Source: a virus
Lineage: Duplodnaviria > Caudoviricetes
IMG/VR virus record: IMGVR_UViG_3300029258_001356
Coordinates: 1 to 61,740 of that record
DNA length: 61,740 nucleotides
Strand: one strand, 5' to 3'
Part shown: positions 853 to 59,278 of the stretch, piece after piece
Numbering within the stretch: the first letter of the stretch is position 1
Layout of the letters: every line of letters starts with the position of its first letter
Program-made: the position numbers and the translations under genes
Notes under the pieces: generated by a model
What the model saw: the letters and a program-made list of their open reading frames with translations, nothing else
The model's database searches: none
Told to the model about the DNA's origin: nothing

Positions 853-1113
853 TGTGCTAGTGCTCCTCTCCTATTTACTTCGCGTCCGACGACTCCTTTG
901 TTGCCAAGACGCGCTCGAATGCCATCGTCTAACTCTTCATCAACCGTCTTTCTCTTTTTCTTTTTTCTTGGCATGTTTCATCCTCCAGACGATGTACTCG
1001 GCTCGGATCATGTCCCAGAGAATCATCATCACGACGAACGGAAGAACCGCGACTGATTTTTCCGTGAGTATTTCTACGATTGGCATTTTCCTTAATTTTT
1101 ACATACTTAAGGG

Positions 1114-1126
1114 ATTTATATACTTT
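1114..1126 (-). promoter_or_regulatory. Archaeal BRE/TATA-type promoter for the leftward arm
   Basis: Reverse complement is AAAGTATATAAAT, the same motif found at 1593, 3107, 5612 and 18101. Confidence 0.7.
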
Positions 1127-1199
1127 GACCAACTCCAGTAGATATCTCCTACAGTGCCAGGTTTGTCGTGGGGAATGAACTCTCTCGCTGGGGACACCG

Positions 1200-1560
1200 A
1201 GATGACGAGTCCCTATATATTTAATTATTATATATAATAATCGCGAGCGCGATATAAGGGTCTGGCTTGTCTGAACGACCCTGGCCAGACATTTTTGGCC
1301 AGACTAATTTGTACGCACACCGCTCCTAGTCCCCAAATTTGGTAAAATTTAAATTGTCTGGCCATCTGGCTATACCCCCCCTCTCTATATCTCTCTAAAG
1401 AGATAGAATAGGAATAGAGAGGGTAGGGGGTGTTCAGATTGGCCAGGGAAGGGGAATTCCTCCAAATTTCCCCTCCTTGATACCTCTATGAAGCAAAACA
1501 CCCTGGCCAAAAACAACAAGCCAGACATGGCCAGACTGTTCAGGGGATGAGGCAGTTCGA
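1200..1560. other. Putative replication origin (A/T-only tract plus TGGCCAGAC iterons)
   Basis: Non-coding gap at the strand divergence, with a 28-nt pure A/T run (1214-1241) and about 7 TGGCCA(GAC)-type copies in both orientations, directly upstream of the MCM-like ATPase. Confidence 0.55.
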
Positions 1561-8634: not shown

Positions 8635-9276
8635 ATGTTTGCAATCAGAGGAATAGAGTTAGAAGAAGTAATACCCGAGCTTGCTAAGAGAATGAACAAG
8701 CTTGGGGTTATTACACTCTATGACGTCTTCATTGAATGCGGGGTATCTCCCGACTTCAAGAAGATAAAGTGGATGGAGAAGTATTTCCACTTCTTTCTAA
8801 AACATCCAAAGGGTAAGTATAACCACATATGGAAGCATTACTATACCCCTATCATAAACGAACTTAGCGAGAAGCATATAACCGAACTTGTTAAGAAGAC
8901 TCTTATGTTTACCAACACAGGAGGTAAGAAATGTATAGGAATGATTATCTTCGAAGAAAAGACATTGAAAGTATTCTTTCGTTCATCATTCCTAATGCCA
9001 ACAATGTACTATGACCTCATTGTTCTCGATAGGTTTATCAAGTACATATACCCCTGGAGAAAAGTTAATAAAGTAGTATTGTATTTTAATAAAATAAAGA
9101 TCAACACTATCTATGGGCTACCGTTCACACAGCTGCTCATGAGAATAGAGAAACTGTCCCCTTACATGAGAAACCTCAGACGCAGATATCTTAAGAAGGT
9201 AGACCAATATGCACAAAGCAACAACTTTCAAAGATCAAGAGTCTATCGAAGATTCAGAGAAGAATTTGGAAAATGA
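8635..9276 (+). CDS. Degenerate second thymidylate-synthase-fold protein
   Basis: KKCIGMIIF...LKVFFRSS...MYYDL parallels PC...YQF...MRSS...PYD of the upstream gene. Confidence 0.5.
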   Translation: MFAIRGIELEEVIPELAKRMNKLGVITLYDVFIECGVSPDFKKIKWMEKYFHFFLKHPKGKYNHIWKHYYTPIINELSEKHITELVKKTLMFTNTGGKKCIGMIIFEEKTLKVFFRSSFLMPTMYYDLIVLDRFIKYIYPWRKVNKVVLYFNKIKINTIYGLPFTQLLMRIEKLSPYMRNLRRRYLKKVDQYAQSNNFQRSRVYRRFREEFGK

Positions 9277-11903
9277 AGAAAGTCCTTGGGGCTGGCAATA
9301 AGAAAAGCAAGATTGCTATCTTTGGATTAGCCCCTCATCCGAACGGAGCTGGTAAGACTGGAGTTCCGCTAACTTCTATTACTAACAAGAGACTATTTGA
9401 ACCAGAGCTTGAAAGAATTGGATTAAAGAGAGAAGACATCTATATTTCTAATGTTATAAAGAAACCACTTGATGACCCAGACATTGATGACGTTGACCTC
9501 TTGGGTCTCGGCAGAGAGATTCATAAATTGAAAGCAAAGATTATTGTTGGCCTTGGGAAAACAACTTGTCGTGCAATCTGTGATTGCTTTAAGAGAAAGA
9601 AAGTTAAGTTTGAGGAAAACACACTAGTTTATCTGGACAGCAAGCATTTATTATTACAAGTCTATCACCCAAGTTATCATGCAAGAAAAGGAACAAAGCT
9701 ATCATTGGAACATCTTAGATGGATTCTTAAAGAACAATGGGTCATGGTATATCCAAAGCTATGTACTCTCTATCTAAAGTTTAGAAACAAGAAGAAAGAA
9801 CTTCTTGAAATAAAGCTTCTTGGGTTTTATGTATTTGAGCATTACAGAGACCCTGATGGAGAAGCCAAGTCTATCTTTGGAGATAGATATAGAAGACAGA
9901 AAAGAGTCTCTTTCGATCCGGAGCAGTTTATTGTTCATCAGAGAGTTCTCCAACTTAAATATGAAAATTCTAAAATAGGATATTTAGATGTTGAAACCAT
10001 GTATCCATCTCAGCCAGATGTGTGTTCTATAATCACTGTGTTATATAAGAAAACATTCTATGTCTTCGCAAGAGGAAGAAAACCCAAGAAGTCAACATAT
10101 AATGGGTATAAAGTAATTATCAAACCAATCCAGAAATACAGAATGTTTATGGAGAAGATGAACTTCGATATTCTCGCAGGTTGGAATGTTAACTTCGATC
10201 GTGATAAAGTTCAAATTCATATGAGAAGAAAATTCAACATGCAATCATGTTACTTTTATGATATGATGCACTTCTATAAAAAGATTGTAAGAGAGTCTCG
10301 AGTTTGTTACAAGCTAAAATATATAGCATCATATGAACTAGGAACAACCAAAGATGACATAGACACATCAAAGGCAGATGAGGAATATAGAAGAGACCCA
10401 GAGAGAATGATTAAGTATAACATAAAAGATGTTCTTCTCCTTAAACTCCTTAATGACAAACTCACTCTAATCGAATTTGCTGGAGCAATAGCAGAATATG
10501 GAAACGTCAATCTTAGAAAAGTAGAGTGGAACTCTAGAATCATTGAGGCAATGTTTATAAGACAGACAGATCTCTATATCCCAAGAAGACAATTTGGTAA
10601 CGAAGAAGAAATGGATTCTTACCATTTCCGTAAGAAATTTATATCAACAGAAAGTAAGTTTGGTGGAGGATTTGTAATGATTCCGAAGCCTGGGATATAT
10701 GAAAACATTTGTGTCTTTGATATGAAGGCATTGTATCCAAGTATAATGCAGACACTTAACATGTCACCAGAAACATTACGAGTTAGGAGGAAAAGCCATC
10801 ATATACTAGCTCCTTCCGATCCAGACAATAGAAATGACTTAACAATAGAAGACATCGAAAAGTATAAGATAAAATTCTATGAAGATGTTCATTACACAAC
10901 AAAGACTCCTGGGATACTTGCAACACTAGCAAAGAAAACAACAGGAGAAAGAGAAAGACTTAGAAGTCAAATGTCTGGATATGTCAAGACAAAGAAAAAC
11001 AGAAGCTTATATATGAAACAATATGCTGTCAAAGTTCTAGCCAATTCCTTCTTTGGAGTAATGGGATTTGAACACTTCTTCCTCTATGATAAAAGAATAG
11101 CGCAAGGAATATGTGCTATGGGAAGAACCATAATTAAATTCCTTTCAAAGAAAGCAATGAAGCTTGGGTATCAGACAATATATACAGACACAGACTCAAA
11201 CTTTATTAAGATAGATGACGTCAAAGAAATTCCTAAAGTAGAAAAGATGCTTAATAAAAAGCTTAAGAAACTAGGAAAGATATGCAATACTCCGTGCAAT
11301 GCTCTTGAGACAAAATTCGAGAAAAGATATACAAGATTTCTCATAGTTAAGAAGAAGAAGTATGCTGGAATAATTGAAGGGAAAGAAGGAGATCCAGAAG
11401 TAAAAGGATTTGAATGCAAGAGGTCAGACCATTCTAAATACTCAAAAGAGATTCAAAAGAATATGATATTCGACATACTCAAAACAGGAAAGATAAAAAC
11501 AAAATACCCCACACATCCAAATGAACTGAAGGCTATTCCTCTTAGAGATTTAGCTGTTCCAAAGAAGCTAACAAAAGACTTAGATGACTACAGCAGAAAG
11601 AGTCCGCCGATTCATGTAAGAGCTGCTAGAAAGTCTGGGATTGAATTAAATAAGCATGACACTGTCTGGTATCTTAATTTATATGGCGGAGATGTTGTAG
11701 CAATCAACAACATGAACGACGAAGAAATAGATGCTCACAAGAACAAAGTCGATTATTATTATATGTTCAACAAGACAGTGATTCCAAAACTTAATCTCAT
11801 ACTCAATCTAATGGATATACATATCGAAGATGTCAAGATAAATAATTTCAAATCTGTAGTTGGAAATAAACTTCTGCAAGATTTCCTGGAGTTTTCAACA
11901 TGA
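9273..11903 (+). CDS. polB: Family B DNA polymerase with N-terminal uracil-DNA-glycosylase-like domain
   Basis: UDG family 4-like: GxGN...IFGLAP...TGVP...YISNVIK...VGLGKT...YHPSY. Exo motifs YLDVET, GWNVNFD, YNIKDV. Pol motifs DMKALYPS, KVLANSFFG, YTDTDS, KKKY. Confidence 0.93.
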   Translation: MKKVLGAGNKKSKIAIFGLAPHPNGAGKTGVPLTSITNKRLFEPELERIGLKREDIYISNVIKKPLDDPDIDDVDLLGLGREIHKLKAKIIVGLGKTTCRAICDCFKRKKVKFEENTLVYLDSKHLLLQVYHPSYHARKGTKLSLEHLRWILKEQWVMVYPKLCTLYLKFRNKKKELLEIKLLGFYVFEHYRDPDGEAKSIFGDRYRRQKRVSFDPEQFIVHQRVLQLKYENSKIGYLDVETMYPSQPDVCSIITVLYKKTFYVFARGRKPKKSTYNGYKVIIKPIQKYRMFMEKMNFDILAGWNVNFDRDKVQIHMRRKFNMQSCYFYDMMHFYKKIVRESRVCYKLKYIASYELGTTKDDIDTSKADEEYRRDPERMIKYNIKDVLLLKLLNDKLTLIEFAGAIAEYGNVNLRKVEWNSRIIEAMFIRQTDLYIPRRQFGNEEEMDSYHFRKKFISTESKFGGGFVMIPKPGIYENICVFDMKALYPSIMQTLNMSPETLRVRRKSHHILAPSDPDNRNDLTIEDIEKYKIKFYEDVHYTTKTPGILATLAKKTTGERERLRSQMSGYVKTKKNRSLYMKQYAVKVLANSFFGVMGFEHFFLYDKRIAQGICAMGRTIIKFLSKKAMKLGYQTIYTDTDSNFIKIDDVKEIPKVEKMLNKKLKKLGKICNTPCNALETKFEKRYTRFLIVKKKKYAGIIEGKEGDPEVKGFECKRSDHSKYSKEIQKNMIFDILKTGKIKTKYPTHPNELKAIPLRDLAVPKKLTKDLDDYSRKSPPIHVRAARKSGIELNKHDTVWYLNLYGGDVVAINNMNDEEIDAHKNKVDYYYMFNKTVIPKLNLILNLMDIHIEDVKINNFKSVVGNKLLQDFLEFST

Positions 11904-18211: not shown

Positions 18212-18307
18212 GGAACTGTAGTGCAGTGGTAGCATTGGTGACGCTATTGGTGAAGTCTAACTTCACTCCTAGTATTCCAGGCTTGGGTTCGATTCCCAAC
18301 GGTTCCT
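18212..18307 (+). ncRNA. tRNA-like RNA A with elongated or intron-like anticodon domain; no encoded CCA
   Basis: Acceptor GGAACTG/CGGTTCC, D arm GTGC-AGTGGTA-GCAT, T arm TTGGG-TTCGATT-CCCAA; ~47 nt between D and T arms capped by GTGAA-GTCTAAC-TTCAC. Confidence 0.75.
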
Positions 18308-40112: not shown

Positions 40113-40994
40113 TTAAACGGCTACTCCGCTTATCTTACCAAGACCCTTTGGCCTTCCTACCGCGAATGCGTACCTTATATAGGCAACGATGTCGAGGTTC
40201 TTAGACCTTGCTGACTTCTCCATCTCTGTGGTCAACGGTTCCCTTTCGTAATACTTAACACTTGCTAAGTCTACGTTTACAATAAGTGCATATGTCTGTG
40301 CAGCTTGGCTTGTGACCAAGATATCAACTCCGAACGGAGTAGGATATATGCCCCTTTGTATAAGGCTTGCGTCTCCATAGTTGATGTACTTTAACAGGTT
40401 AGGGTCTACCCTTAAATACTTAAATGTATTTGGGTGAAGTATCAAGTACTTCTTACCGTCGCCTGCGTCGTCAGCTTCCAAGGCTCCTAGCCCAAGAGAT
40501 ATGTCCAACAGAACGTCTGCTGATGCGTTATCCCATGTTGCTGAGGCAGCTACAACGTGATCTGACAAAGCCGGGATGGTTTGTCCGTTGTATGTCCCGC
40601 CGTCAAGGTATATGTTCAAAGCTTCTAACAAGTCTGCGTTAAGGAATCTTGCGATACCGAAACCGATTGCTTCGACATGGTCGTTGACTAAGTCCCATCT
40701 GGAATCTTTTATCCAGTTAATTGGAAGCCTTGGTGCAATACCCAAGTCCTTGATGGTTGCGAACTTTCTTTCGAAATCCATAACCTTGCTTGGATATTCT
40801 CCACTCTCTCCCTGCTCTTCTGGGTTTAGCCAAGAGTCTGTAACATTATACTCAACTACAGGTCCTTGTGCTGGGTACGTCTTTGCTATTAGCGGATATA
40901 TAATCTTTGGCTGAAGAGCTTTTATGATAGTATCGTCTACCTGCTCTTTAAACAATGCCCAAGATTGCGCTGATGATGCCGGAACTAATGCCAT
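40113..40994 (-). CDS. Major capsid protein (HK97 fold)
   Basis: GESGEYP E-loop, LILHP, FGVDILVT, IRYAFAV.RP; follows protease and cement genes. Confidence 0.85.
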   Translation of the reverse strand: MALVPASSAQSWALFKEQVDDTIIKALQPKIIYPLIAKTYPAQGPVVEYNVTDSWLNPEEQGESGEYPSKVMDFERKFATIKDLGIAPRLPINWIKDSRWDLVNDHVEAIGFGIARFLNADLLEALNIYLDGGTYNGQTIPALSDHVVAASATWDNASADVLLDISLGLGALEADDAGDGKKYLILHPNTFKYLRVDPNLLKYINYGDASLIQRGIYPTPFGVDILVTSQAAQTYALIVNVDLASVKYYEREPLTTEMEKSARSKNLDIVAYIRYAFAVGRPKGLGKISGVAV

Positions 40995-49887: not shown

Positions 49888-51864
49888 TTAGTCCTCCTTT
49901 ATGACTATTGTGGTGTCACCGTCCTTTAAAATAAGAGGTCCATTGTCCGCGAATGCGGGAGCCTTAGGAGCCTTGGGCATTCCTGATGGACCAGTTGACT
50001 TGGACAATGCCTGTCCCTTAGCCATTGATTCTGCTCCTGTGTTTCCTCTGAAGTTTTTGTTGACATCTAGTCCTCCTTTCATTAAGCTGAATATATCTTC
50101 TTCACCTTCTCCCATTGCTTCGTTGGATTCCTGGACTTGTTCTTCAGACTCTTTCTTTTCGTCCTCGTCTTCTTCTTGTGGCTTTTCGTTTACTCTCTTT
50201 GCTGCTCTATCTTCGTTGATGATACCGGCTTGCAGAAGTGATATTGTATTAGCAATAGTTTGTGTCTCATCTTGTTTGAATGCTTCTTTCCATTCTACCT
50301 TTGGATACCTGAGTTCCTCAACCATGTGTGAACCCTTTTCCTTCAAGAAGTCATTAATCGTTTCATCTGGTGTTGGCTCTGTGTTAAGAATACCATCTAC
50401 CTCTTTCTTCTTCTTATCAAACTCAATGTCAATTGCAGGATTGATTATCCTATCTTCAATCATACCGCCTACATACTCTTGCCTGTCTTTAAGTCTACCC
50501 AAGAATGTCTTGTCTTGTTCTGATATCATTCTATCGGTAGAACCCTTTGGCTTGAAGTATGTCTCTGGTACTGCAGTGACTGCGAATATCTGTGTGTCAA
50601 GGTCTATGGTTAAGTTAAGTAGGTCATTCTTACCCTGTGGTGCGTTAAGTGGATTCGCTGTCCAGATGTCTGTTGTTATTGGGTCTGACCCTGGCTCCAT
50701 GTCTTCCAACATATTCATATGCTCGTTGAGTTTATCCTCAATTGCCTTACCTGACAATCCTTCTTTCTTCATCTGCCAGTGTATCATTGGCTTGGCATAC
50801 TTCTTGAATATGATTGGTGCCAGAAGGTTTATATCGAATCTTGCCTGTGCTGGATCTATGCATGATTTGATGTCTGAGAACCCGAAAGGATATTCCGTAT
50901 AGTCATTCTGTTTAAAGTGAATGATATCTTTTGGTGCTATTACTATCGGTAATGGGTAGGTTAACGCCATGTTATGTACTAGGTTAGGATTCTCTCTTGT
51001 CTCAGGATAAGGAGTCAATACCGTTCCACCTATGATTGGTGGCAAGTATATATAGAAGAGAATCTTAGTAGTCATTGGGTCTAAGAATATCTTCATCCTC
51101 TCTGGCTGTAAGATTGTTATCTTGTCGGTGATACCATCCTCTCCTCTTCGTAGGTGCCAATAGCAATTCCCATAAAGAGATAAGTGGAAGTCTGTCTTCT
51201 TAAGAACCCTTCCATCTATTTTGAGCTTATCAAATAATAGCTTCTCTATAAACTTCTCTTCCGGTATCTCTTGTTCTTCATCCGGATAGTTTACATCGAA
51301 TCTAGCACCAAGCCCTAGCTGTGCTTTAAGATTCAAAGAAGCGTACAAGTAAGGAACATTATAAACAAGGTCTACATTCTTTGAATAATCTTCTGGGCTA
51401 CGTATAGCTGTGAGAGAGAAGTACATACTCCACCCAGTCATTACTCTACCATTGATTATGTATACCTTATCGCCCGCGTGCGTCATCACGTGTGGGACAC
51501 CTATTACTCTATCGTCTTCTGCTGTCTCTAATTGTATCTCTGGAGACACCATTGAAGAATCAGACCGCTTATAGAAGTTAGGACCATTATCAGAAACTTC
51601 AACTATCAAGTCAGGAGAAACCTTCTTTGCCATGTTTGTGAACTTATTATCCACAGAAGCAAGAATCTCCCCGCTCTTTTCAACAAGCTTCTTACCCTTG
51701 ATTAGTCCTTCTTTTGCAGCCTTATCAAATGCAACAAGATCGACACCAAACTTAGGTATGCTTTTCTTAGCATTTTCTAAGTGCCTGTCAATGAACCCAC
51801 GGGCTTGTTCGACTTTATAATCTTCGCCGTTTATTTTTAAATTTGATTTTTTCTTCTTTGCCAT
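49888..51864 (-). CDS. Portal protein with N- and C-terminal extensions
   Basis: LYGNCYW, LQPERM, DIIHFK...PFGFS.I, AVPETY; position in packaging module. Confidence 0.85.
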   Translation of the reverse strand: MAKKKKSNLKINGEDYKVEQARGFIDRHLENAKKSIPKFGVDLVAFDKAAKEGLIKGKKLVEKSGEILASVDNKFTNMAKKVSPDLIVEVSDNGPNFYKRSDSSMVSPEIQLETAEDDRVIGVPHVMTHAGDKVYIINGRVMTGWSMYFSLTAIRSPEDYSKNVDLVYNVPYLYASLNLKAQLGLGARFDVNYPDEEQEIPEEKFIEKLLFDKLKIDGRVLKKTDFHLSLYGNCYWHLRRGEDGITDKITILQPERMKIFLDPMTTKILFYIYLPPIIGGTVLTPYPETRENPNLVHNMALTYPLPIVIAPKDIIHFKQNDYTEYPFGFSDIKSCIDPAQARFDINLLAPIIFKKYAKPMIHWQMKKEGLSGKAIEDKLNEHMNMLEDMEPGSDPITTDIWTANPLNAPQGKNDLLNLTIDLDTQIFAVTAVPETYFKPKGSTDRMISEQDKTFLGRLKDRQEYVGGMIEDRIINPAIDIEFDKKKKEVDGILNTEPTPDETINDFLKEKGSHMVEELRYPKVEWKEAFKQDETQTIANTISLLQAGIINEDRAAKRVNEKPQEEDEDEKKESEEQVQESNEAMGEGEEDIFSLMKGGLDVNKNFRGNTGAESMAKGQALSKSTGPSGMPKAPKAPAFADNGPLILKDGDTTIVIKED

Positions 51865-51872
51865 TCTCTCAC

Positions 51873-53204
51873 CTAATGATTTGTCGTATTCGTTCCTATG
51901 GAATCACCAGAACCTAGTGGAAGGATTGCGTCTACATATACGTCACCTTCTTCATCCGGATCTCCTATTCTCATCTTTCTTATCGGTAGAGGGTCTGCGT
52001 CTACATGCGGAGCTAACCTGTTATCATTCTCTACGCCTTCATCTACCTTCTCTCCTTGACTTACCATTTCGTTGTATGCTCCCAACGGATCTGGCATCTT
52101 CAAAGGAGCAGGCGCCATCTCACCTATATCATCTCTTCCTATTCTTAGTTTCCTAGGCATTTCTTCGCCTGGGATATGATGTCTATGCTTATATGCTATC
52201 TCATTGTAATTGGGAGATGTAACCCTATGCACTTCTCTTCCATCTTCCTTCCATTGCTCCCTCTTAACTCCATTGTCTACCTCTGATGAATAATCTTGCA
52301 TGTCTGCAACCTCCATTGCGTTTTTGAATCGTGCTAAAGGACCTAAGCCATAATGATCAAGAAGCGGTGTCCCTCCGAAGTCATTGAGTCTCTTGACCAG
52401 CTTCACCATCTTCTTGTAGTTGTCTCCAATTTGGGCGTATTGCAAAAGGTTTTCTCTGTGTGTTAAGATAGCCCTTTGCAACATAGGGTGTATGTCCGCC
52501 TTCATCTGTGCCTTGAATCTTAAGGCTCTTAAGATGATAGATGGATCACGGGCTAAAACCACTTCTGGGTCTAGCGGAGTTCTAATTACGTTTTCTCGTG
52601 CATCCTTGATACCTAATCCCGTAGGATCGTAATACTTCCCTGATAGAGGTTCTTTGAATACTGCATTGAATGTAAAATCCCTAGAATAAGCGTCTTCATT
52701 GATTGGTGTTATGGGTATCTCTTGTCTATCCATCTCTTCATGTACCCAATGAAGAATTTGCTTCAGACCTCTGAACTCTACATTGATGTCATCTATAACT
52801 AGGTGTGCTACACCACTCTTAGAACCATGGTCTGGATTAGGAAGATTCTCGTCTCTGGCTACCAGATACGCTAAGGCAATCGAGTTACCTCTTTCCAGCG
52901 TAGTAAGGTCAGCATCAGAAGACTCGTCGAATGGGATATTGGCAAGTTCATTCCTGACAATACCACCAGAGACGAGAAGCGTCATATCATTCTTTTGTGC
53001 TAGGATACCTATCTCCCTCAGAAGATTATCCATTTCCGCTTTTGTTGAACCTGTTTCAATCATTTTCAATTTTCTTAACATCTTGAAGGTCTTTGTCGAA
53101 GGATGAAATAATCTCCACCTTATCTCCTTCCTTAACTTCCCAGTATCCTCGATCGACATTATACTGTGCCTTCTTCCATTGGCCTTTGTGTAGAATGTTA
53201 GCAT
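51873..53204 (-). CDS. Class II tRNA nucleotidyltransferase / poly(A) polymerase family protein with altered template motif
   Basis: SGGIVRN...DADLT (motif A), EDAYSRDFTFNA (B), YYDPTG.G..D (C), RDPSIILRALRF (D/E; canonical EDxxRxxRxxRF). Confidence 0.85.
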   Translation of the reverse strand: MLTFYTKANGRRHSIMSIEDTGKLRKEIRWRLFHPSTKTFKMLRKLKMIETGSTKAEMDNLLREIGILAQKNDMTLLVSGGIVRNELANIPFDESSDADLTTLERGNSIALAYLVARDENLPNPDHGSKSGVAHLVIDDINVEFRGLKQILHWVHEEMDRQEIPITPINEDAYSRDFTFNAVFKEPLSGKYYDPTGLGIKDARENVIRTPLDPEVVLARDPSIILRALRFKAQMKADIHPMLQRAILTHRENLLQYAQIGDNYKKMVKLVKRLNDFGGTPLLDHYGLGPLARFKNAMEVADMQDYSSEVDNGVKREQWKEDGREVHRVTSPNYNEIAYKHRHHIPGEEMPRKLRIGRDDIGEMAPAPLKMPDPLGAYNEMVSQGEKVDEGVENDNRLAPHVDADPLPIRKMRIGDPDEEGDVYVDAILPLGSGDSIGTNTTNH

Positions 53205-53659: not shown

Positions 53660-55291
53660 TTATATCAATAGACTCTTTGTCCTTTTCTTCGGAGACCTAC
53701 TCTTTAGTCTATTTCCTACCGATTCTTTGGTCTCCTCTTTCGACTGAGCCTGTCTCCTTTGCTGTGGCTTATCCTTTGATGTCCAAACATTAGCACCGGC
53801 GGATTCAGTATGACCCCGCTGGGTCTCTGACCCCTCGATGTCTACATTCATAAAACATAATAACGTTGACCAGAGATAGTCATCGTGTGAATTCTCTGGA
53901 TGGAAGAATTTGTACTTGTTATTCGATGTCATCTCATACTGCTGCTGTGTCATCTGATAGAATAGAACCTCTGCGTTCATTGGGAACCTTATCTTCTTCT
54001 GCTGTATGAGAACTTGCATGGTAGTAACCATTCTAGTCTTGGATTCAACATTGAAAACTATAGCACCTCTCTTGTTCTCCTTATCAAAGTATACAGGCAC
54101 ACCTTCCTGAACCAACAGATCGGTTACACCCTTCTCTCCTGTATAGTCTATGTTGAATTCAGCAGGCTCAAAGTATTGATAGAGAGCCTTAATCCTTCCG
54201 GCAGTATGTGTGTAAGGCATACCTAGGGGAATCTCTTCTTGATGTACAATACTATATGGCAACTTGTCTACTCTACCAACTGTTATGACTGTTGAATCCT
54301 TTTGCTTTCCTAGGTCAACACCCATAACAAAGATTGCCTTCTCTTCAAACATCTTGGCTATCTCTTCCTTCCTAGACATTAGACCAGCGTGATTCTTTGA
54401 CCATCTGTATTTCTTTAAGACAGACTCTACTTGGTCACTTGGGAATGGAGTACTAGAGGACTCAGAGAATATACACATGTACTCCTGATCAAACAGAGAC
54501 TCTGGTATCTGTCGCTTCCTCTTCATGATATACTCTTTGTTAAGGAAAGGACATTCATGCCACACTTGCTTGATAACTGTTACATCTGGATTGGCTACTG
54601 TCTCATGGAAATGATTCTTGGTCATCGGTGTTCCTGACTCCACTATGTTCGGGTTAGTAGTACTTCCCATAGGTAGTATGTCCGCGTAGTACTTAGAATC
54701 AATAACATCTTGTGACTCATCAATGACTATTCTTGTCGCTGTTGGAGACCTTATGTGTGAACCAGGGCTTGCTGATAAGAACTCTACGGTGTTACCATCT
54801 GTAGTTGTTATAATCTCGCTGTTGCACTTCTCTATCATAGCCCAGATGATTGGGTCTTTCTTCAAGAGAGCCTCGACTTTATAGAATAGGTTCTGTGTCT
54901 GCTTTTGGATAGGTGCGAAGACTAATATGTTCTCCTTCATCCATACTCCACCCTGATTAAATAGCCCTCCAGAGAATATTAGCCAGTAGAAGATTATCTT
55001 GGCTACGGTAGTAGACTTGCCTGTCTGCCTTGCCCAGATTGCTACAGTATGCTTGGTTGTTACCGCAGCTTTAAAGAAATCTATCTGCTTCGGAGACATG
55101 GGCTCGTCCATGTACTCGGTGAAGAATCTAATTGGATTCCTCTTATAGAACAAGAATAGTTTCTCAGCAGCTTCGTATAGCGGGTCAGTCTTGATCGTCA
55201 CCGCTGCCATGTACTTCTGTATCTTCTTCTTGTTCCCCTTCCTGAGGTTCTCCGCCCTCAGGTTCGCCATATTCTCTATTGCTTCCATCAT
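53660..55291 (-). CDS. terL: Terminase large subunit
   Basis: WARQTGKST Walker A, IVIDESQ Walker B, SGTP, FDQEY.C.F, GVDLGK..DST, HDD nuclease motifs. Confidence 0.93.
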   Translation of the reverse strand: MMEAIENMANLRAENLRKGNKKKIQKYMAAVTIKTDPLYEAAEKLFLFYKRNPIRFFTEYMDEPMSPKQIDFFKAAVTTKHTVAIWARQTGKSTTVAKIIFYWLIFSGGLFNQGGVWMKENILVFAPIQKQTQNLFYKVEALLKKDPIIWAMIEKCNSEIITTTDGNTVEFLSASPGSHIRSPTATRIVIDESQDVIDSKYYADILPMGSTTNPNIVESGTPMTKNHFHETVANPDVTVIKQVWHECPFLNKEYIMKRKRQIPESLFDQEYMCIFSESSSTPFPSDQVESVLKKYRWSKNHAGLMSRKEEIAKMFEEKAIFVMGVDLGKQKDSTVITVGRVDKLPYSIVHQEEIPLGMPYTHTAGRIKALYQYFEPAEFNIDYTGEKGVTDLLVQEGVPVYFDKENKRGAIVFNVESKTRMVTTMQVLIQQKKIRFPMNAEVLFYQMTQQQYEMTSNNKYKFFHPENSHDDYLWSTLLCFMNVDIEGSETQRGHTESAGANVWTSKDKPQQRRQAQSKEETKESVGNRLKSRSPKKRTKSLLI

Positions 55292-57266: not shown

Positions 57267-57461
57267 TCATTTCTCTGTCACCTCTTCTTCCCAAGGACAG
57301 CCAAGACAGTTATCCTCTTCACAGTCTTCACACATATTGCCTATCTCAGATATGCACAACATCTTAGCTCTATACTTCTTTCCTTTGAAGTGAATACCAT
57401 CTAGTCTTACTTCAAAGAACTTCGATGGAATTTCTATTGTCTTAACTTTTTCTTCACTCAT
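57267..57461 (-). CDS. Hypothetical Cys-containing protein
   Basis: GGAGG RBS; shares a 17-aa block with its neighbour. Confidence 0.55.
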   Translation of the reverse strand: MSEEKVKTIEIPSKFFEVRLDGIHFKGKKYRAKMLCISEIGNMCEDCEEDNCLGCPWEEEVTEK

Positions 57462-57639
57462 TTTTGTCGTCCTCCTTGTACCACTTCTTACTTATCTTTG
57501 GTCTGGCTCCCTTCATTCTATACAAGGCAACCTCTGTGTGTATCACCAGTTTCTTTGGCATGAGTAGTTTGAGTGCAGCTACATCTTGCTCAGATATGCA
57601 CAACATCTTAGCTCTATACTTCTTTCCTTTGAAGTGAAT
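57345..57639. repeat. Exact 51-bp direct repeat (57345-57395 and 57589-57639)
   Basis: CTCAGATATGCACAACATCTTAGCTCTATACTTCTTTCCTTTGAAGTGAAT occurs twice. Confidence 0.9.
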
Positions 57640-57786
57640 GTACATGCGACCATCTGGCAGCATAGACATATATCTCCTCTTGAAGTATTCCTCAGCTTCC
57701 TTCTTAGTCTTCGGAAGCCTCAGTTTCTTTTTCTTCTTAATCTTCTTTGACATCTTCTGTTCTTTCCGTTGCACCAAAGTGCTCAC
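57454..57786 (-). CDS. Hypothetical basic protein
   Basis: ORF on the coding strand; contains the duplicated block. Confidence 0.55.
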   Translation of the reverse strand: MSTLVQRKEQKMSKKIKKKKKLRLPKTKKEAEEYFKRRYMSMLPDGRMYIHFKGKKYRAKMLCISEQDVAALKLLMPKKLVIHTEVALYRMKGARPKISKKWYKEDDKNE

Positions 57787-58011
57787 CTACAACCTCATCA
57801 GTCATTAGTGGTTGGTAGCTTGGCTTCTCCTTCTCCATCTCCTTCTTTACTCCTCTCTCCCTTGCAGCCAGTATCTTCTGATGTCTCTTTCTCGACTTCT
57901 CTACCATTCTTTTTCCTAGTCCCATCTGTATCACTCTCCTCGTATTCTGTCTGACCTGTTTCCAGGTTTCCTTTTATTTTTGTCATGATTATCACCGAAA
58001 GCCGTACCCAA

Positions 58012-58186
58012 TGCCTCACCTACTTGCCGATCGGAAACGTACAGTAGGAATTGGTATAGGAATACTCCCGTGGTCGACTTCCTTTAGTGTATCACCTTTG
58101 ATTATAACCTCAGGGAGGGGGAAGGCCTGGCAGGACCTTCGAAACCCTGAGTCTCTTTCCATGGAGGAAAAGAGTATGAGTAGGCA
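58012..58186 (-). ncRNA. Structured RNA domain (multi-hairpin)
   Basis: CTCAGGG/CCCTGAG enclosing GAAGG/CCTTC; CTCTTT/AAAGAG hairpin; TGCCT/AGGCA closing stem; no credible ORF. Confidence 0.5.
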
Positions 58187-58263
58187 GAGGATGATGGGAC
58201 TTGCACCCATTAACTTAAGCTCCCTCCTGTAGTTGATTGCCCATTCCTACAGGCCACATCCTC
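58186..58263 (-). ncRNA. tRNA-like RNA D (acceptor plus T arm)
   Basis: Minus strand: GAGGATG...ATGGG-TGCAAGT-CCCAT-CATCCTC-T; interior hairpin CCTGTAG/CTACAGG. Confidence 0.7.
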
Positions 58264-58269
58264 ATAAGT

Positions 58270-58346
58270 AGGCTCCCGGAGCATTTCTGCCCCAGTCGTC
58301 TCGAACGACAAGCCAGATGGTCGAGAACCCCTGAAGCTTGGGAGCC
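58270..58346 (-). ncRNA. tRNA-like RNA C (acceptor plus T-arm mimic)
   Basis: Minus strand: GGCTCCC...GGGGC-AGAAAT-GCTCC-GGGAGCC-T; interior GTCGT-TCGAG-ACGAC. Confidence 0.6.
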
Positions 58347-58353
58347 ATAAGGC

Positions 58354-58470
58354 GGGGAGAGAGAAGCGAATGAGAGATGACCAACAAACGGGATTGCTGG
58401 CAAGATGAGATGGTGCCAAGAACCATCAAAGAAAGGCGGAAACCTTTCGAAGGATGCTTCTCTTCTCCCC
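58354..58470 (-). ncRNA. Structured RNA with 14-bp closing stem and two inner hairpins
   Basis: GGGGAGA(A)GAGAAGC/GCTTCTCTCTCCCC; GAAAGG/CCTTTC; GATGGT/ACCATC. Confidence 0.6.
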
Positions 58471-58500
58471 TGAGTTTTGATGAGTGAGTATGAGAAGGGC

Positions 58501-58725
58501 TTAACCCTTCTTCTTTTTCTTGTCCTTCTTCTCCTTCTTCTCTGGAGTTGCTACATAGGTTACTGAGTCATCAATAACATATGCCTTTGTGTCTCCACGG
58601 ACAATTGGCTTGCTCGTAACATGAGCTATTCTCTTCAGGTCCTTCAATGACCTGACTACGACTTCGCCAGAACCACTAGGGGTCTTGACAGCTTTTTCTG
58701 TCTTTACTACTACCGGTAGATTCAT
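58501..58725 (-). CDS. Hypothetical protein with Lys-rich tail
   Basis: AGGAGG RBS; hairpin over the stop codon. Confidence 0.65.
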   Translation of the reverse strand: MNLPVVVKTEKAVKTPSGSGEVVVRSLKDLKRIAHVTSKPIVRGDTKAYVIDDSVTYVATPEKKEKKDKKKKKG

Positions 58726-59278
58726 TTTGTTTTCCTCCTATCTCTTTCACATTATCAGGAAACGTGGCTTTGTATTCCGTTTTGAACTTCGTCTCAGGAA
58801 TCTCCACCTTAGCTCCTGGTGTGAATCTAATTGTTTCTTCTTCAGTGCGTGGCATAGAGACTCTCCCTTCCTTCCTCAGCTCATTAGATATCATCTCCAT
58901 GAGTCCCATTATCATATCATCTCTAGCTCCTTTGCCAAACAAGTCTTCAGCTACGCACATCTGATGCTGAAGACCTGACATCATAAATCCAGAATGCAAT
59001 TGAATCATGAATAACTTCTCTTCACGATCGTCTTTGATTAGACCGCTCTCTTTCGCCTTAATAGTAGCAGAGCACATCACTCCTGCAGAATTACCACCAA
59101 GCTCCTTACAGAACAAGTCAATGTTCTCTTGAAGGAACTCTCTCGTTCGATCTAAGAAGTTCAATGTCTCGTCGGAGAATCCTAGTTTCCTAGCTCTCAC
59201 TAACATCTCATCAGTACTCTCGGTCTCATCCGTTAGGATTGGACCCTTGTTCTCGTTCGCTCCTATCATCTTTCTCAT
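58676..59278 (-). CDS. Hypothetical protein
   Basis: 200-aa ORF on the coding strand. Confidence 0.6.
   Translation of the reverse strand: MRKMIGANENKGPILTDETESTDEMLVRARKLGFSDETLNFLDRTREFLQENIDLFCKELGGNSAGVMCSATIKAKESGLIKDDREEKLFMIQLHSGFMMSGLQHQMCVAEDLFGKGARDDMIMGLMEMISNELRKEGRVSMPRTEEETIRFTPGAKVEIPETKFKTEYKATFPDNVKEIGGKQNESTGSSKDRKSCQDP

What the first reader, a model, noticed from the sequence alone, without database searches (positions are those of the whole stretch)
58012..58495. Unannotated ~480-nt array of structured RNAs containing two tRNA top-half mimics
Seen on the minus strand, in order: a 117-nt RNA closed by a 14-bp stem (58470-58354); a 76-nt unit with a 7-bp acceptor GGCTCCC/GGGAGCC stacked on a 5-bp T-like arm (58346-58271); a 77-nt unit with GAGGATG/CATCCTC stacked on ATGGG-TGCAAGT-CCCAT (58263-58187); then a multi-hairpin domain. 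D and anticodon arms are replaced by unrelated hairpins. Both mimics are followed by U and lack CCA. The ORFs here are short and unconvincing. Established: RNase P, RNase Z and CCA enzymes recognise the acceptor/T-arm half of tRNA. Inference: a polycistronic ncRNA is cut at tRNA-like punctuation marks, releasing novel RNAs that could be decoys for host tRNA-targeting defences or substrates for the viral nucleotidyltransferase.
Basis: partly seen in the sequence, partly recalled or inferred. Interest (0 to 1): 0.88.

Follow-up and report, generated by a model that had tools for sequence, protein, structure and literature searches.

The report
Orphan structured non-coding island in virus
A 0.45-kb stretch of an uncultivated tailed virus carries no gene and can fold into several closed RNA domains, but its likeness to tRNA is no better than chance and nothing like it was found elsewhere, so it is a plausible but unproven viral small-RNA locus.

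Summary
The stretch (about 58040-58500) is non-coding: all 8 inner ORFs score like non-coding frames, and its GC is 52% against 40% for the genome. Unit 1 (117 nt) and unit 2 (76 nt) fold far better than shuffles. Unit 3 and the last 100 nt do not.

The tRNA reading fails every test I could run:
- ARAGORN and the Rfam tRNA model find nothing there, even at E<=10.
- The acceptor-plus-T-arm geometry occurs 8 times in the genome against 7.65 expected by chance.
- Tandem units closed by 7-bp stems occur 4 times against 5.1 expected.
- Unit 2's "T arm" is a 6-bp helix with a GAAA tetraloop.
- Unit 3's T arm is not in the best fold.

The region-wide folding z-score (-3.7) is matched by 3 of 31 coding control windows. 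No homologue turned up in 97 related loci, IMG/VR or GTDB pattern scans. There is no population variation and no RNA data, so covariation and expression remain untested.

My best reading is virus-specific structured RNA co-transcribed with early genes (confidence 0.45).

In passing: a real but aberrant tRNA-like gene lies at 18212-18307, and the viral nucleotidyltransferase is an orphan with an altered nucleotide-selection motif.

The parts
58354..58470 (-). Unit 1: a 117-nt domain closed by a 14-bp helix (7+7 bp, one bulged A) around three hairpins
   Evidence: MFE -48.4 kcal/mol, z -5.95, 0 of 200 shuffles as stable. Closing-helix pair probability is 0.99 in the 501-nt context. A covariance model of it (R2) finds only itself in 785 kb.
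58347..58353 (-). 7-nt single-stranded spacer GCCUUAU between units 1 and 2
   Evidence: It shares CUUAU before a G with the second spacer. A role as a processing site is inference only.
58271..58346 (-). Unit 2: a 76-nt four-helix junction (7-bp closing stem, long irregular arm, 6-bp/3-nt hairpin, 6-bp/GAAA hairpin)
   Evidence: MFE -37.7 kcal/mol, z -3.18, 0 of 200 shuffles. Closing pairs have probability 0.89-0.91 in context. Model R1 finds only itself. There is no tRNA hit.
58264..58270 (-). 7-nt spacer UACUUAU between units 2 and 3
58187..58263 (-). Unit 3: a 77-nt domain with a 7-bp closing stem and an optional 5-bp/7-nt T-like arm; the weakest unit
   Evidence: z -1.58, 11 of 200 shuffles fold as well. 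The T-arm fold is 0.9 kcal/mol above the MFE, and a full cloverleaf is 3.2 kcal/mol above it. ARAGORN calls it only at 85% threshold with introns allowed.
58109..58174 (-). Two further hairpins (58174-58153 and 58151-58109)
   Evidence: the 58100-58186 stretch has z -3.21, with 1 of 200 shuffles as stable.
58012..58108 (-). Unstructured tail, probably the leader or promoter region of the next gene rather than part of an RNA array; TATAAT at 58106-58101
   Evidence: z +0.33, 118 of 200 shuffles fold as well. Coding signal resumes near 58040-57980. The hexamer is read. The promoter scan listed no site there.
58501..58725 (-). Upstream flanking gene: a 74-aa lysine-rich ORFan with a strong AGGAGG ribosome-binding site
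   Evidence: Codon score +0.31. There is no relative apart from two low-complexity matches among 1.84 billion representatives.
57798..58019 (-). Downstream flanking ORF (likely start ATG 57985)
   Evidence: Codon score +0.27. No PHROG match.

Best explanation
The stretch is a virus-specific non-coding insert in the leftward early operon of a 61.7-kb tailed virus with terminal repeats. It is transcribed in the minus sense together with the small ORFs around it. The transcript folds into two well-defined, independently closed domains (unit 1, 117 nt; unit 2, 76 nt), a weaker third domain (unit 3, 77 nt) and two hairpins. I think these closed domains most likely survive as stable small RNAs after host endonucleases cut the pyrimidine-rich 7-nt linkers. 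Their function would be in host takeover or counter-defence, as for other early phage small RNAs.

Shown here: the stretch is non-coding, it has a distinct composition, and its fold is modular and strand-biased.

Inferred: that it is transcribed, that it is processed, that the products are stable, and any function. The units are not tRNAs.
For: Non-coding:
- All 8 inner ORFs score -0.09 to -0.35, against +0.26 for genes.
- None has a Pfam or PHROG match at E<=1, apart from one chance-level 0.11.
- It is one of only 8 segments of 100 nt or more without coding signal in the genome, and has the highest GC of them, 0.516.

Composition: the purine skew of the coding strand disappears exactly here.

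Fold:
- Unit 1 z -5.95 and unit 2 z -3.18, each with 0 of 200 shuffles as stable.
- Closing helices have probability 0.9-0.99 in the 501-nt context.

Strand:
- The minus sense is more stable: -179.9 against -166.7 kcal/mol, z -3.71 against -1.70.
- The unit folds hold 3+4+4 G-U pairs in the minus sense against 0+0+1 in the plus sense.
- All flanking genes are on the minus strand.

The DNA is real. One 3633-nt contig spans 57610-61242 without a difference in each of 4 runs.
Against: - There is no homologue, so there is no covariation: blastn and nhmmer on 97 loci, covariance models R1 and R2, and IMG/VR and GTDB pattern scans.
- No listed run is on record as RNA.
- The region-wide z is matched by 3 of 31 coding windows.
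- In fixed 120-nt windows the region is unremarkable.
- Unit boundaries were chosen after looking, which inflates the unit z-scores.
- Over the whole 484 nt the G-U counts are alike on both strands, 14 against 13.
- Unit 3 and the last 100 nt show no folding signal.
- No promoter or terminator was found for a separate RNA gene.
Confidence: 0.45

Rival explanations
1. Units 2 and 3 mimic the acceptor/T-arm half of tRNA and act as punctuation marks. RNase P cuts 5' of G58346 and G58263. RNase Z cuts after the U that follows each unit. The released RNAs are tailed by the viral nucleotidyltransferase or act as decoys for tRNA-targeting defences.
For: - Both units have a 7-bp terminal helix with a hairpin stacked directly on its 3' strand, U at -1 and G at +1, U after the helix, no CCA, and sizes of 76 and 77 nt with 7-nt spacers.
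- Unit 3 can also form a D-like arm with GG in its loop.
- The genome encodes a class II nucleotidyltransferase.
- It also holds a genuine tRNA-like gene without CCA at 18212-18307.
- Two relatives carry true tRNAs.
Against: - The tRNA model gives no hit at E<=10 on the region or genome-wide, and the mascRNA model gives none either.
- The top-half geometry is at chance frequency, 8 against 7.65.
- Tandem closed units are at chance frequency, 4 against 5.1.
- Unit 2 has a tetraloop and 13 stacked pairs.
- Unit 3's T loop has G where U55 is universal (the U55 rule is recalled), and the arm is suboptimal.
- The enzyme's EDxxR motif reads RDPSI, and only the head domain is recognisable.
Confidence: 0.15
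2. A decayed tRNA gene cluster. Two or three former viral tRNA genes lost their anticodon and D arms and no longer function. The remaining stems are leftovers.
For: - Unit sizes (76 and 77 nt) and short spacers look like a phage tRNA array.
- Unit 3 keeps acceptor, T-like and possible D-like arms.
- Its T stem AUGGG/CCCAU is the same as in the tRNA-Ala of relative L003.
- Relatives L003 and L020 carry tRNAs.
- The GC is high, as in tRNA genes.
Against: - Random decay should break stems. Yet the acceptor stems are 7 of 7 Watson-Crick, and unit 2 is paired throughout in arms of non-tRNA size.
- No residual tRNA score remains.
- Unit 1 has no tRNA features.
Confidence: 0.12
3. A cis-acting intergenic region. 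The structures control stability, processing, termination or translation of the polycistronic early mRNA, for example as double-strand nuclease sites or protective hairpins, and the region includes the promoter or leader of the downstream genes. No separate RNA product would have a function.
For: - It lies inside a same-strand operon with no detectable promoter or terminator of its own.
- The last 100 nt are unstructured, carry a TATAAT hexamer, and lead into the next ORF.
- A hairpin overlaps the stop codon of the upstream gene at 58492-58512.
Against: - At 450 nt it is far longer than the other intergenic gaps of this compact genome. Only 8 segments of 100 nt or more lack coding signal.
- Closed multi-branch domains are not typical of simple processing hairpins. 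This last point is general knowledge, not tested here.
Confidence: 0.18
4. No function. This is a horizontally acquired or leftover spacer whose GC-richness alone gives stable-looking folds, or a DNA-level element such as a recombination or replication site.
For: - The stretch and its neighbours are orphans.
- Folding z-scores of this size occur in coding DNA.
- Geometry statistics are at chance.
- A 13-nt direct repeat (12 of 13 identical) flanks units 1-3 at 58498-58486 and 58184-58172.
Against: - Unit 1's z of -5.95 is computed against shuffles of the same composition.
- The flanking repeat scores no better than shuffles: 21, against a mean of 17.4 and a maximum of 25.
- No iterons or AT-rich tract are present.
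- Compact viral genomes rarely keep 450 nt of junk. That is general knowledge.
Confidence: 0.1

Closest known systems
Phage T4 small RNAs RNAC and RNAD
   Same: Virus-encoded, stable, non-coding RNAs of still unknown function in a tailed phage. PMC9697503 (passages read) says 'RNAs of yet unknown functions' and confirms them by Northern blot. That they lie in the T4 tRNA gene cluster and have tRNA-like ends is recalled, not checked.
   Different: The T4 RNAs sit among eight true tRNA genes, and expression is proven. Here no true tRNA is adjacent, no expression data exist, and there is no sequence or model match.
Murine gammaherpesvirus 68 TMERs (tRNA-like element followed by hairpins)
   Same: A viral cluster of tRNA-like modules joined to further stem-loops. 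The tRNA-like part is released by RNase Z and is not aminoacylated (PMC4337559, passages read).
   Different: TMER tRNA-like parts resemble eukaryotic tRNAs in sequence and carry polymerase III promoters. Units 2 and 3 score nothing with the tRNA model. The host domain and transcription machinery also differ.
mascRNA/menRNA tRNA-like 3' elements (Rfam RF01684) and plant mitochondrial t-elements
   Same: These show the same idea of tRNA-like folds used as RNase P/Z cutting marks inside longer transcripts. For t-elements only the search listing and start of the abstract of PMC1920247 were seen.
   Different: RF01684 gives no hit in the region. It does give 31 bits, below its 42.5 cut-off, on the separate tRNA-like gene at 18243-18306.
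Canonical tRNA (Rfam RF00005)
   Same: Size of 76-77 nt, a 7-bp terminal helix, and a four-helix outline.
   Different: No model score, and no T-loop, D-loop or anticodon-loop signatures.
phi29-type packaging RNA (pRNA)
   Same: A viral RNA of about 120 nt closed by a long terminal helix around a multi-helix junction, like unit 1. This description of pRNA is recalled.
   Different: No Rfam family, pRNA included, matched at E<=10. This virus packages with a T4-type large terminase, and no complementary loop pair is seen.

Membership tests
tRNA (RF00005) | Covariance-model score at or above the 29-bit gathering cut-off | tested here: not met
   There is no hit at E<=10 on 58160-58500, on 57700-58800 or genome-wide. 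The same search scores 18212-18307 at 41.5 bits.
tRNA (RF00005) | Detection by ARAGORN at default settings | tested here: not met
   0 genes at default settings. Only forced calls appear at 70-85% thresholds with poor D and anticodon arms.
tRNA (RF00005) | T loop of 7 nt on a 5-bp stem with the U54-U55-C56-R57-A58 pattern (pattern recalled) | tested here: not met
   Unit 2 has a 6-bp stem with a GAAA tetraloop. Unit 3 has 5 bp and 7 nt, but the loop reads UGCAAGU, with G at position 55, and the arm is not in the MFE.
tRNA-like processing elements (mascRNA RF01684, t-elements, TMER vtRNAs) | A 12-bp coaxial acceptor/T-arm stack capped by a T loop | tested here: inconclusive
   Unit 3 can adopt it, at +0.9 kcal/mol. 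Unit 2 has 13 bp under a tetraloop. The geometry occurs at chance rate in the genome, 8 against 7.65.
tRNA-like processing elements (mascRNA RF01684, t-elements, TMER vtRNAs) | Match to the RF01684 model | tested here: not met
   No hit in the region at E<=10.
tRNA-like processing elements (mascRNA RF01684, t-elements, TMER vtRNAs) | Cleavage by RNase P at +1 and by RNase Z after the discriminator base | not testable with these tools
   This needs in vitro cleavage assays or RNA end mapping. No listed run is on record as RNA.
Any curated Rfam family (4227 models) | Score at the family's gathering cut-off | tested here: not met
   0 matches for the window. Matches at E<=10 are all far below their cut-offs.
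Conserved structured ncRNA (general criterion) | Compensatory base changes in homologues | not testable with these tools
   No homologue was found. The 4 runs hold identical sequence.
CCA-adding enzyme (class II nucleotidyltransferase), as proposed partner | Head domain PF01743 with the GG..DxD and RRD motifs | tested here: met
   PF01743 at 46.6 bits. SGGIVRN...DAD and SRDFTFNA are seen in the alignments.
CCA-adding enzyme (class II nucleotidyltransferase), as proposed partner | EDxxR nucleotide-selection motif and recognisable RNA-binding body and tail domains | tested here: not met
   RDPSI aligns with EDPLR and EDPVR. No PF12627 or PF13735 is found, unlike in most of the weak relatives. 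The fold model was unusable, pLDDT 35.9.

The most novel reading that the evidence does not exclude
The virus makes a small set of tRNA-shaped RNAs that cannot decode. These would be units 2 and 3 here, plus the model-detected tRNA-like gene at 18212-18307, whose anticodon region is about 25 nt too long. Host RNase P and RNase Z would cut them out of longer transcripts. The virus's own divergent nucleotidyltransferase would finish their ends. They would then soak up or misdirect host enzymes that attack tRNA during infection.
Probability: 0.08. Interest if true: 0.8.

Novelty: new member of a known kind. Interest (0 to 1): 0.35.

Why it matters
If the units are real RNAs, they would add an orphan family to the short list of structured small RNAs encoded by tailed viruses. 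Most of those still have no known function.

The same genome also holds an aberrant tRNA-like gene and an orphan nucleotidyltransferase. That combination makes this virus a candidate for unusual tRNA-related biology.

As it stands, the locus rests on thermodynamic prediction in a single sequence. The specific tRNA-mimic claim, which gave the finding its high first-stage score, is not supported.

Tried and rejected
Searches for homologues, all empty:
- blastn against 50,697 phage records.
- Exact patterns in IMG/VR and in GTDB genomes.
- blastn and nhmmer on 17 and then 97 related loci.
- DNA search of 5 whole related virus records.
- Single-sequence covariance models of unit 2, unit 1 and the 18212 element on 785 kb. 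For R1 and R2 only self hits came back. For R3, besides self hits, three weak matches at E 0.87-1.7.

Flanking proteins as anchors:
- The 200-aa neighbour has no relative.
- The 74-aa neighbour has only low-complexity matches.
- The large terminase has no relative above 45% identity.
- The nucleotidyltransferase has none above 33% over less than half its length.
Synteny therefore could not lead to an orthologous region. Relatives do not share the genes upstream of the terminase.

Expression: no RNA holder was listed among the sequencing runs.

Population variation: 4 runs from 3 studies hold identical contigs and may be the source samples.

Ideas rejected:
- A hidden protein gene.
- An attachment site copying a host tRNA 3' half: no exact match in GTDB genomes, and no integrase among the 50 ORF translations scanned against Pfam, 40 of at least 150 aa and 10 shorter.
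- A tandem duplication or mobile insert marked by the 13-nt flanking repeat, which is not above shuffles.
- Units as paralogues of each other.
- pRNA, Y RNA, ribozymes and riboswitches: no Rfam hit.
- TAG recoding linked to the CUA loop of the 18212 element: TAG ends normal genes.

Other dead ends:
- Structure prediction of the nucleotidyltransferase failed (pLDDT 35.9), so no fold search was run.
- The host could not be assigned. Terminase hits at about 25% identity go to both Bacillus and haloarchaeal viruses. The capsid protein has no phage-record match. Cluster names were uninformative.
- The look-up of contigs encoding an exact protein was closed by its description and was not called.

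Full report
**Context.** The window is a complete IMG/VR virus record of 61,740 bp with 144-bp direct terminal repeats. It is a tailed virus. Its recognisable genes are:
- large terminase at 53660-55291;
- portal at 49888-51864;
- HK97-type capsid protein at 40113-40994;
- tail tube protein;
- family B DNA polymerase fused to a uracil-DNA glycosylase domain;
- a possible primase (weak Pfam matches to archaeo-eukaryotic primase domains, below the cut-offs) and a helicase;
- thymidylate synthase-like, dUTPase and dCMP deaminase genes.

A class II nucleotidyltransferase (PF01743 head domain) lies at 51873-53204, between terminase and portal.

The virus has no close kin:
- The best terminase relative among 5.8 billion proteins is 45% identical.
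- Cultured-phage hits are about 25% identical and go to both Bacillus and haloarchaeal viruses.
- The host is unassigned.

- Unit 1 (58470-58354) is closed by 7+7 bp with one bulged A and contains three hairpins.
- Unit 2 (58346-58271) is a four-helix junction with no unpaired junction bases.
- Unit 3 (58263-58187) has the 7-bp GAGGAUG/CAUCCUC helix, with AUGGG-UGCAAGU-CCCAU placed directly before its 3' strand.
- Units 2 and 3 are each followed by U and lack CCA.

Two details need correcting. Unit 2's 'T-like arm' is a 6-bp helix with a GAAA tetraloop, so it stacks 13 pairs, not 12, and has no T loop. Unit 3's T arm is not in the minimum-energy fold: it costs 0.9 kcal/mol and has pair probability 0.14-0.30. 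A full cloverleaf for unit 3 costs 3.2 kcal/mol.

**The stretch is non-coding.** I trained a codon log-odds score on 37 long genes of this genome.
- In-frame 60-codon windows average +0.26 (5th percentile +0.10).
- Wrong frames average -0.34.
- The 8 ORFs inside the region score -0.09 to -0.35.
- The small ORFs on either side score +0.15 to +0.32.

None of the inner ORFs matches Pfam or PHROGs at E<=1, apart from one chance-level 0.11. Genome-wide, only 8 segments of 100 nt or more lack coding signal. This one has the highest GC, 0.516 against a genome mean of 0.40. The strong purine skew of the coding strand vanishes exactly here. The next-highest GC among those segments (0.483) belongs to the segment that holds the tRNA-like gene described below.

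**Is the fold more than chance?** At unit level, yes for two units:

| Stretch | z-score | Shuffles as stable |
|---|---|---|
| Unit 1 | -5.95 | 0 of 200 |
| Unit 2 | -3.18 | 0 of 200 |
| 58100-58186 | -3.21 | 1 of 200 |
| Unit 3 | -1.58 | 11 of 200 |
| 58012-58110 | +0.33 | 118 of 200 |

The controls temper this.
- The 501-nt region gives z -3.71 on the minus strand and -1.70 on the plus strand.
- But 3 of 31 coding 500-nt control windows reach -3.7 or lower (20 shuffles each; 21.5-52 kb only, because the script hit my time guard).
- In a scan of 975 fixed 120-nt windows, none from the region ranks among the best 25.
- The unit boundaries were chosen after inspection, which inflates their z-scores.

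Strand evidence is moderate. The unit folds hold 3+4+4 G-U pairs in the minus sense and 0+0+1 in the plus sense. Over the whole 484 nt, however, the counts are 14 and 13.

**The tRNA-mimic claim.**
- ARAGORN finds nothing at default settings. It makes only forced calls at 70-85% thresholds.
- The Rfam tRNA model finds nothing at E<=10 on 341 nt, on 1.1 kb or genome-wide.
- The mascRNA model finds nothing there either.
- The defining geometry is a 7-bp helix whose 3' strand directly follows a 5-bp/7-nt hairpin, 60-95 nt overall, with at most one G-U in each helix. It occurs 8 times in this genome against a mean of 7.65 in 20 dinucleotide shuffles.
- Units of 70-95 nt closed by a perfect 7-bp helix number 115, against 140 +/- 14 in shuffles. 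Tandem pairs of them number 4, against 5.1 +/- 3.7.

So the geometry carries no statistical weight of its own. Within a 484-nt stretch picked for other reasons it would be expected about 0.03-0.04 times, which is suggestive at most.

Features that remain compatible with RNase P and RNase Z are U at -1, G at +1, a U trailer, the absence of CCA and the two 7-nt spacers ending in CUUAU. These are read from the sequence. Their meaning is inference.

**No homologues, no variation, no RNA data.**
- Nucleotide searches found nothing in phage records, in 97 loci around related terminases totalling 724 kb, or in five whole related records.
- Single-sequence covariance models of units 2 and 1 hit only themselves in 785 kb.
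- Exact-pattern scans of IMG/VR and of 185,579 species genomes were empty.
- The neighbouring 200-aa and 74-aa proteins are orphans.
- Relatives share the structural module, with the capsid protein at 70-75% identity, but not the genes upstream of the terminase.
- Four sequencing runs from three studies hold the stretch with zero differences and may be its source. None is on record as RNA.

Covariation and expression, the two tests that would settle the matter, therefore could not be made.

**The proposed enzyme partner.**
- The nucleotidyltransferase is also an orphan. Its nearest relatives are 32-33% identical over 40-47% of the query.
- It is absent between terminase and portal in six relatives.
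- Its head-domain motifs are present, but the EDxxR nucleotide-selection motif aligns as RDPSI.
- No RNA-binding body or tail domain is recognised.
- A single-sequence structure model was unusable, with pLDDT 35.9.
- A more economical substrate than the units exists in the same genome, described next.

**A real tRNA-like gene elsewhere.** While folding the other non-coding segments I found a canonical T arm at 18283-18299. With laxer filters the Rfam tRNA model scores 18212-18307 (+) at 41.5 bits, against a cut-off of 29.
- It has a canonical acceptor stem, a D arm with GG in its loop, and a UUCGAUU T loop.
- It has 40 nt where the model expects 15 in the anticodon region.
- It encodes no CCA.
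- ARAGORN finds it only when introns are allowed, as Val(AAC) with a 16-nt intron.
- The best 7-nt loop reads GUCUAAC, which would place CUA in the anticodon position.
- TAG is a normal stop codon in this genome.
- I could not find a bulge-helix-bulge splice motif by eye.
- No homologue appeared among the loci.

This element is what a tRNA-like RNA in this virus actually looks like to the models. It contrasts sharply with units 2 and 3.

**Verdict.** The reading as an array of tRNA top-half mimics used as punctuation is not supported by any test available here, although it is not excluded. My weights are:

| Explanation | Weight |
|---|---|
| Virus-specific structured RNA co-transcribed with early genes and probably trimmed to stable domains | 0.45 |
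| Purely cis-acting intergenic region | 0.18 |
| tRNA-like punctuation | 0.15 |
| Decayed tRNA cluster | 0.12 |
| No function | 0.10 |

Known parallels are T4 RNAC and RNAD (PMC9697503, passages read) and the gammaherpesvirus TMERs (PMC4337559, passages read). For plant mitochondrial t-elements I saw only the listing and the start of the abstract of PMC1920247. The tRNA-like ends of the T4 RNAs and the features of pRNA are recalled, not checked. I did not search for prior description of this particular locus beyond the database and model searches named above.

Noticed in passing
window 18212-18307 (+): This is a tRNA-like gene that ARAGORN at default settings and the whole-window Rfam gathering scan both missed. 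The Rfam tRNA model gives 41.5 bits with lax filters. Acceptor, D and T arms are canonical, the anticodon region is about 25 nt too long, a possible CUA sits in the anticodon place, and no CCA is encoded. It is either an intron-bearing tRNA or a non-decoding tRNA-like RNA.
   Followed up: partly
window 51873-53204 (-): An orphan class II nucleotidyltransferase is inserted between the large terminase and the portal, where six relatives have nothing. Its EDxxR motif reads RDPSI, and only the head domain is recognisable.
   Followed up: partly
window 1066-1491: This is the largest segment without coding signal (426 nt). It carries several copies of TGGCCAGAC-type direct and inverted repeats around 1282-1469. 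It is a candidate replication origin or regulatory region.
   Followed up: no
window 57267-57786 (-): Two adjacent small ORFs (64 aa and 110 aa) share a near-identical peptide stretch (HFKGKKYRAKMLCISE). The Logan contigs of all four runs break at this repeat (57366-57639).
   Followed up: no
L003:5777-5849 and L020:4312-4383: Two relatives (terminase 43-45% identical) each carry one true tRNA, Ala(TGC) and Thr(TGT), immediately upstream of the large terminase gene. The L003 tRNA has the same T stem, AUGGG/CCCAU, as unit 3.
   Followed up: partly
L088:1891-1948 (-): A weak hit (E 0.87) of the 18212-element model falls on a 58-nt sequence with acceptor, D and T arms but almost no anticodon arm. 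It lies next to a true tRNA-Met at 1806-1877 in a distant virus contig.
   Followed up: no
window 58498-58486 and 58184-58172 (-): A 13-nt direct repeat (12 of 13 identical) brackets units 1-3. Its alignment score is not above shuffles, so it is probably chance and not a target-site duplication.
   Followed up: yes
window 40113-40994 compared with 53660-55291: The capsid protein is 70-75% identical to relatives whose terminase is only 39-43% identical. This points to very uneven divergence or module exchange in this virus group.
   Followed up: no
window 9273-11903 (+): The family B DNA polymerase carries an N-terminal uracil-DNA glycosylase superfamily domain (residues 6-149) in the same reading frame.
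   Followed up: no
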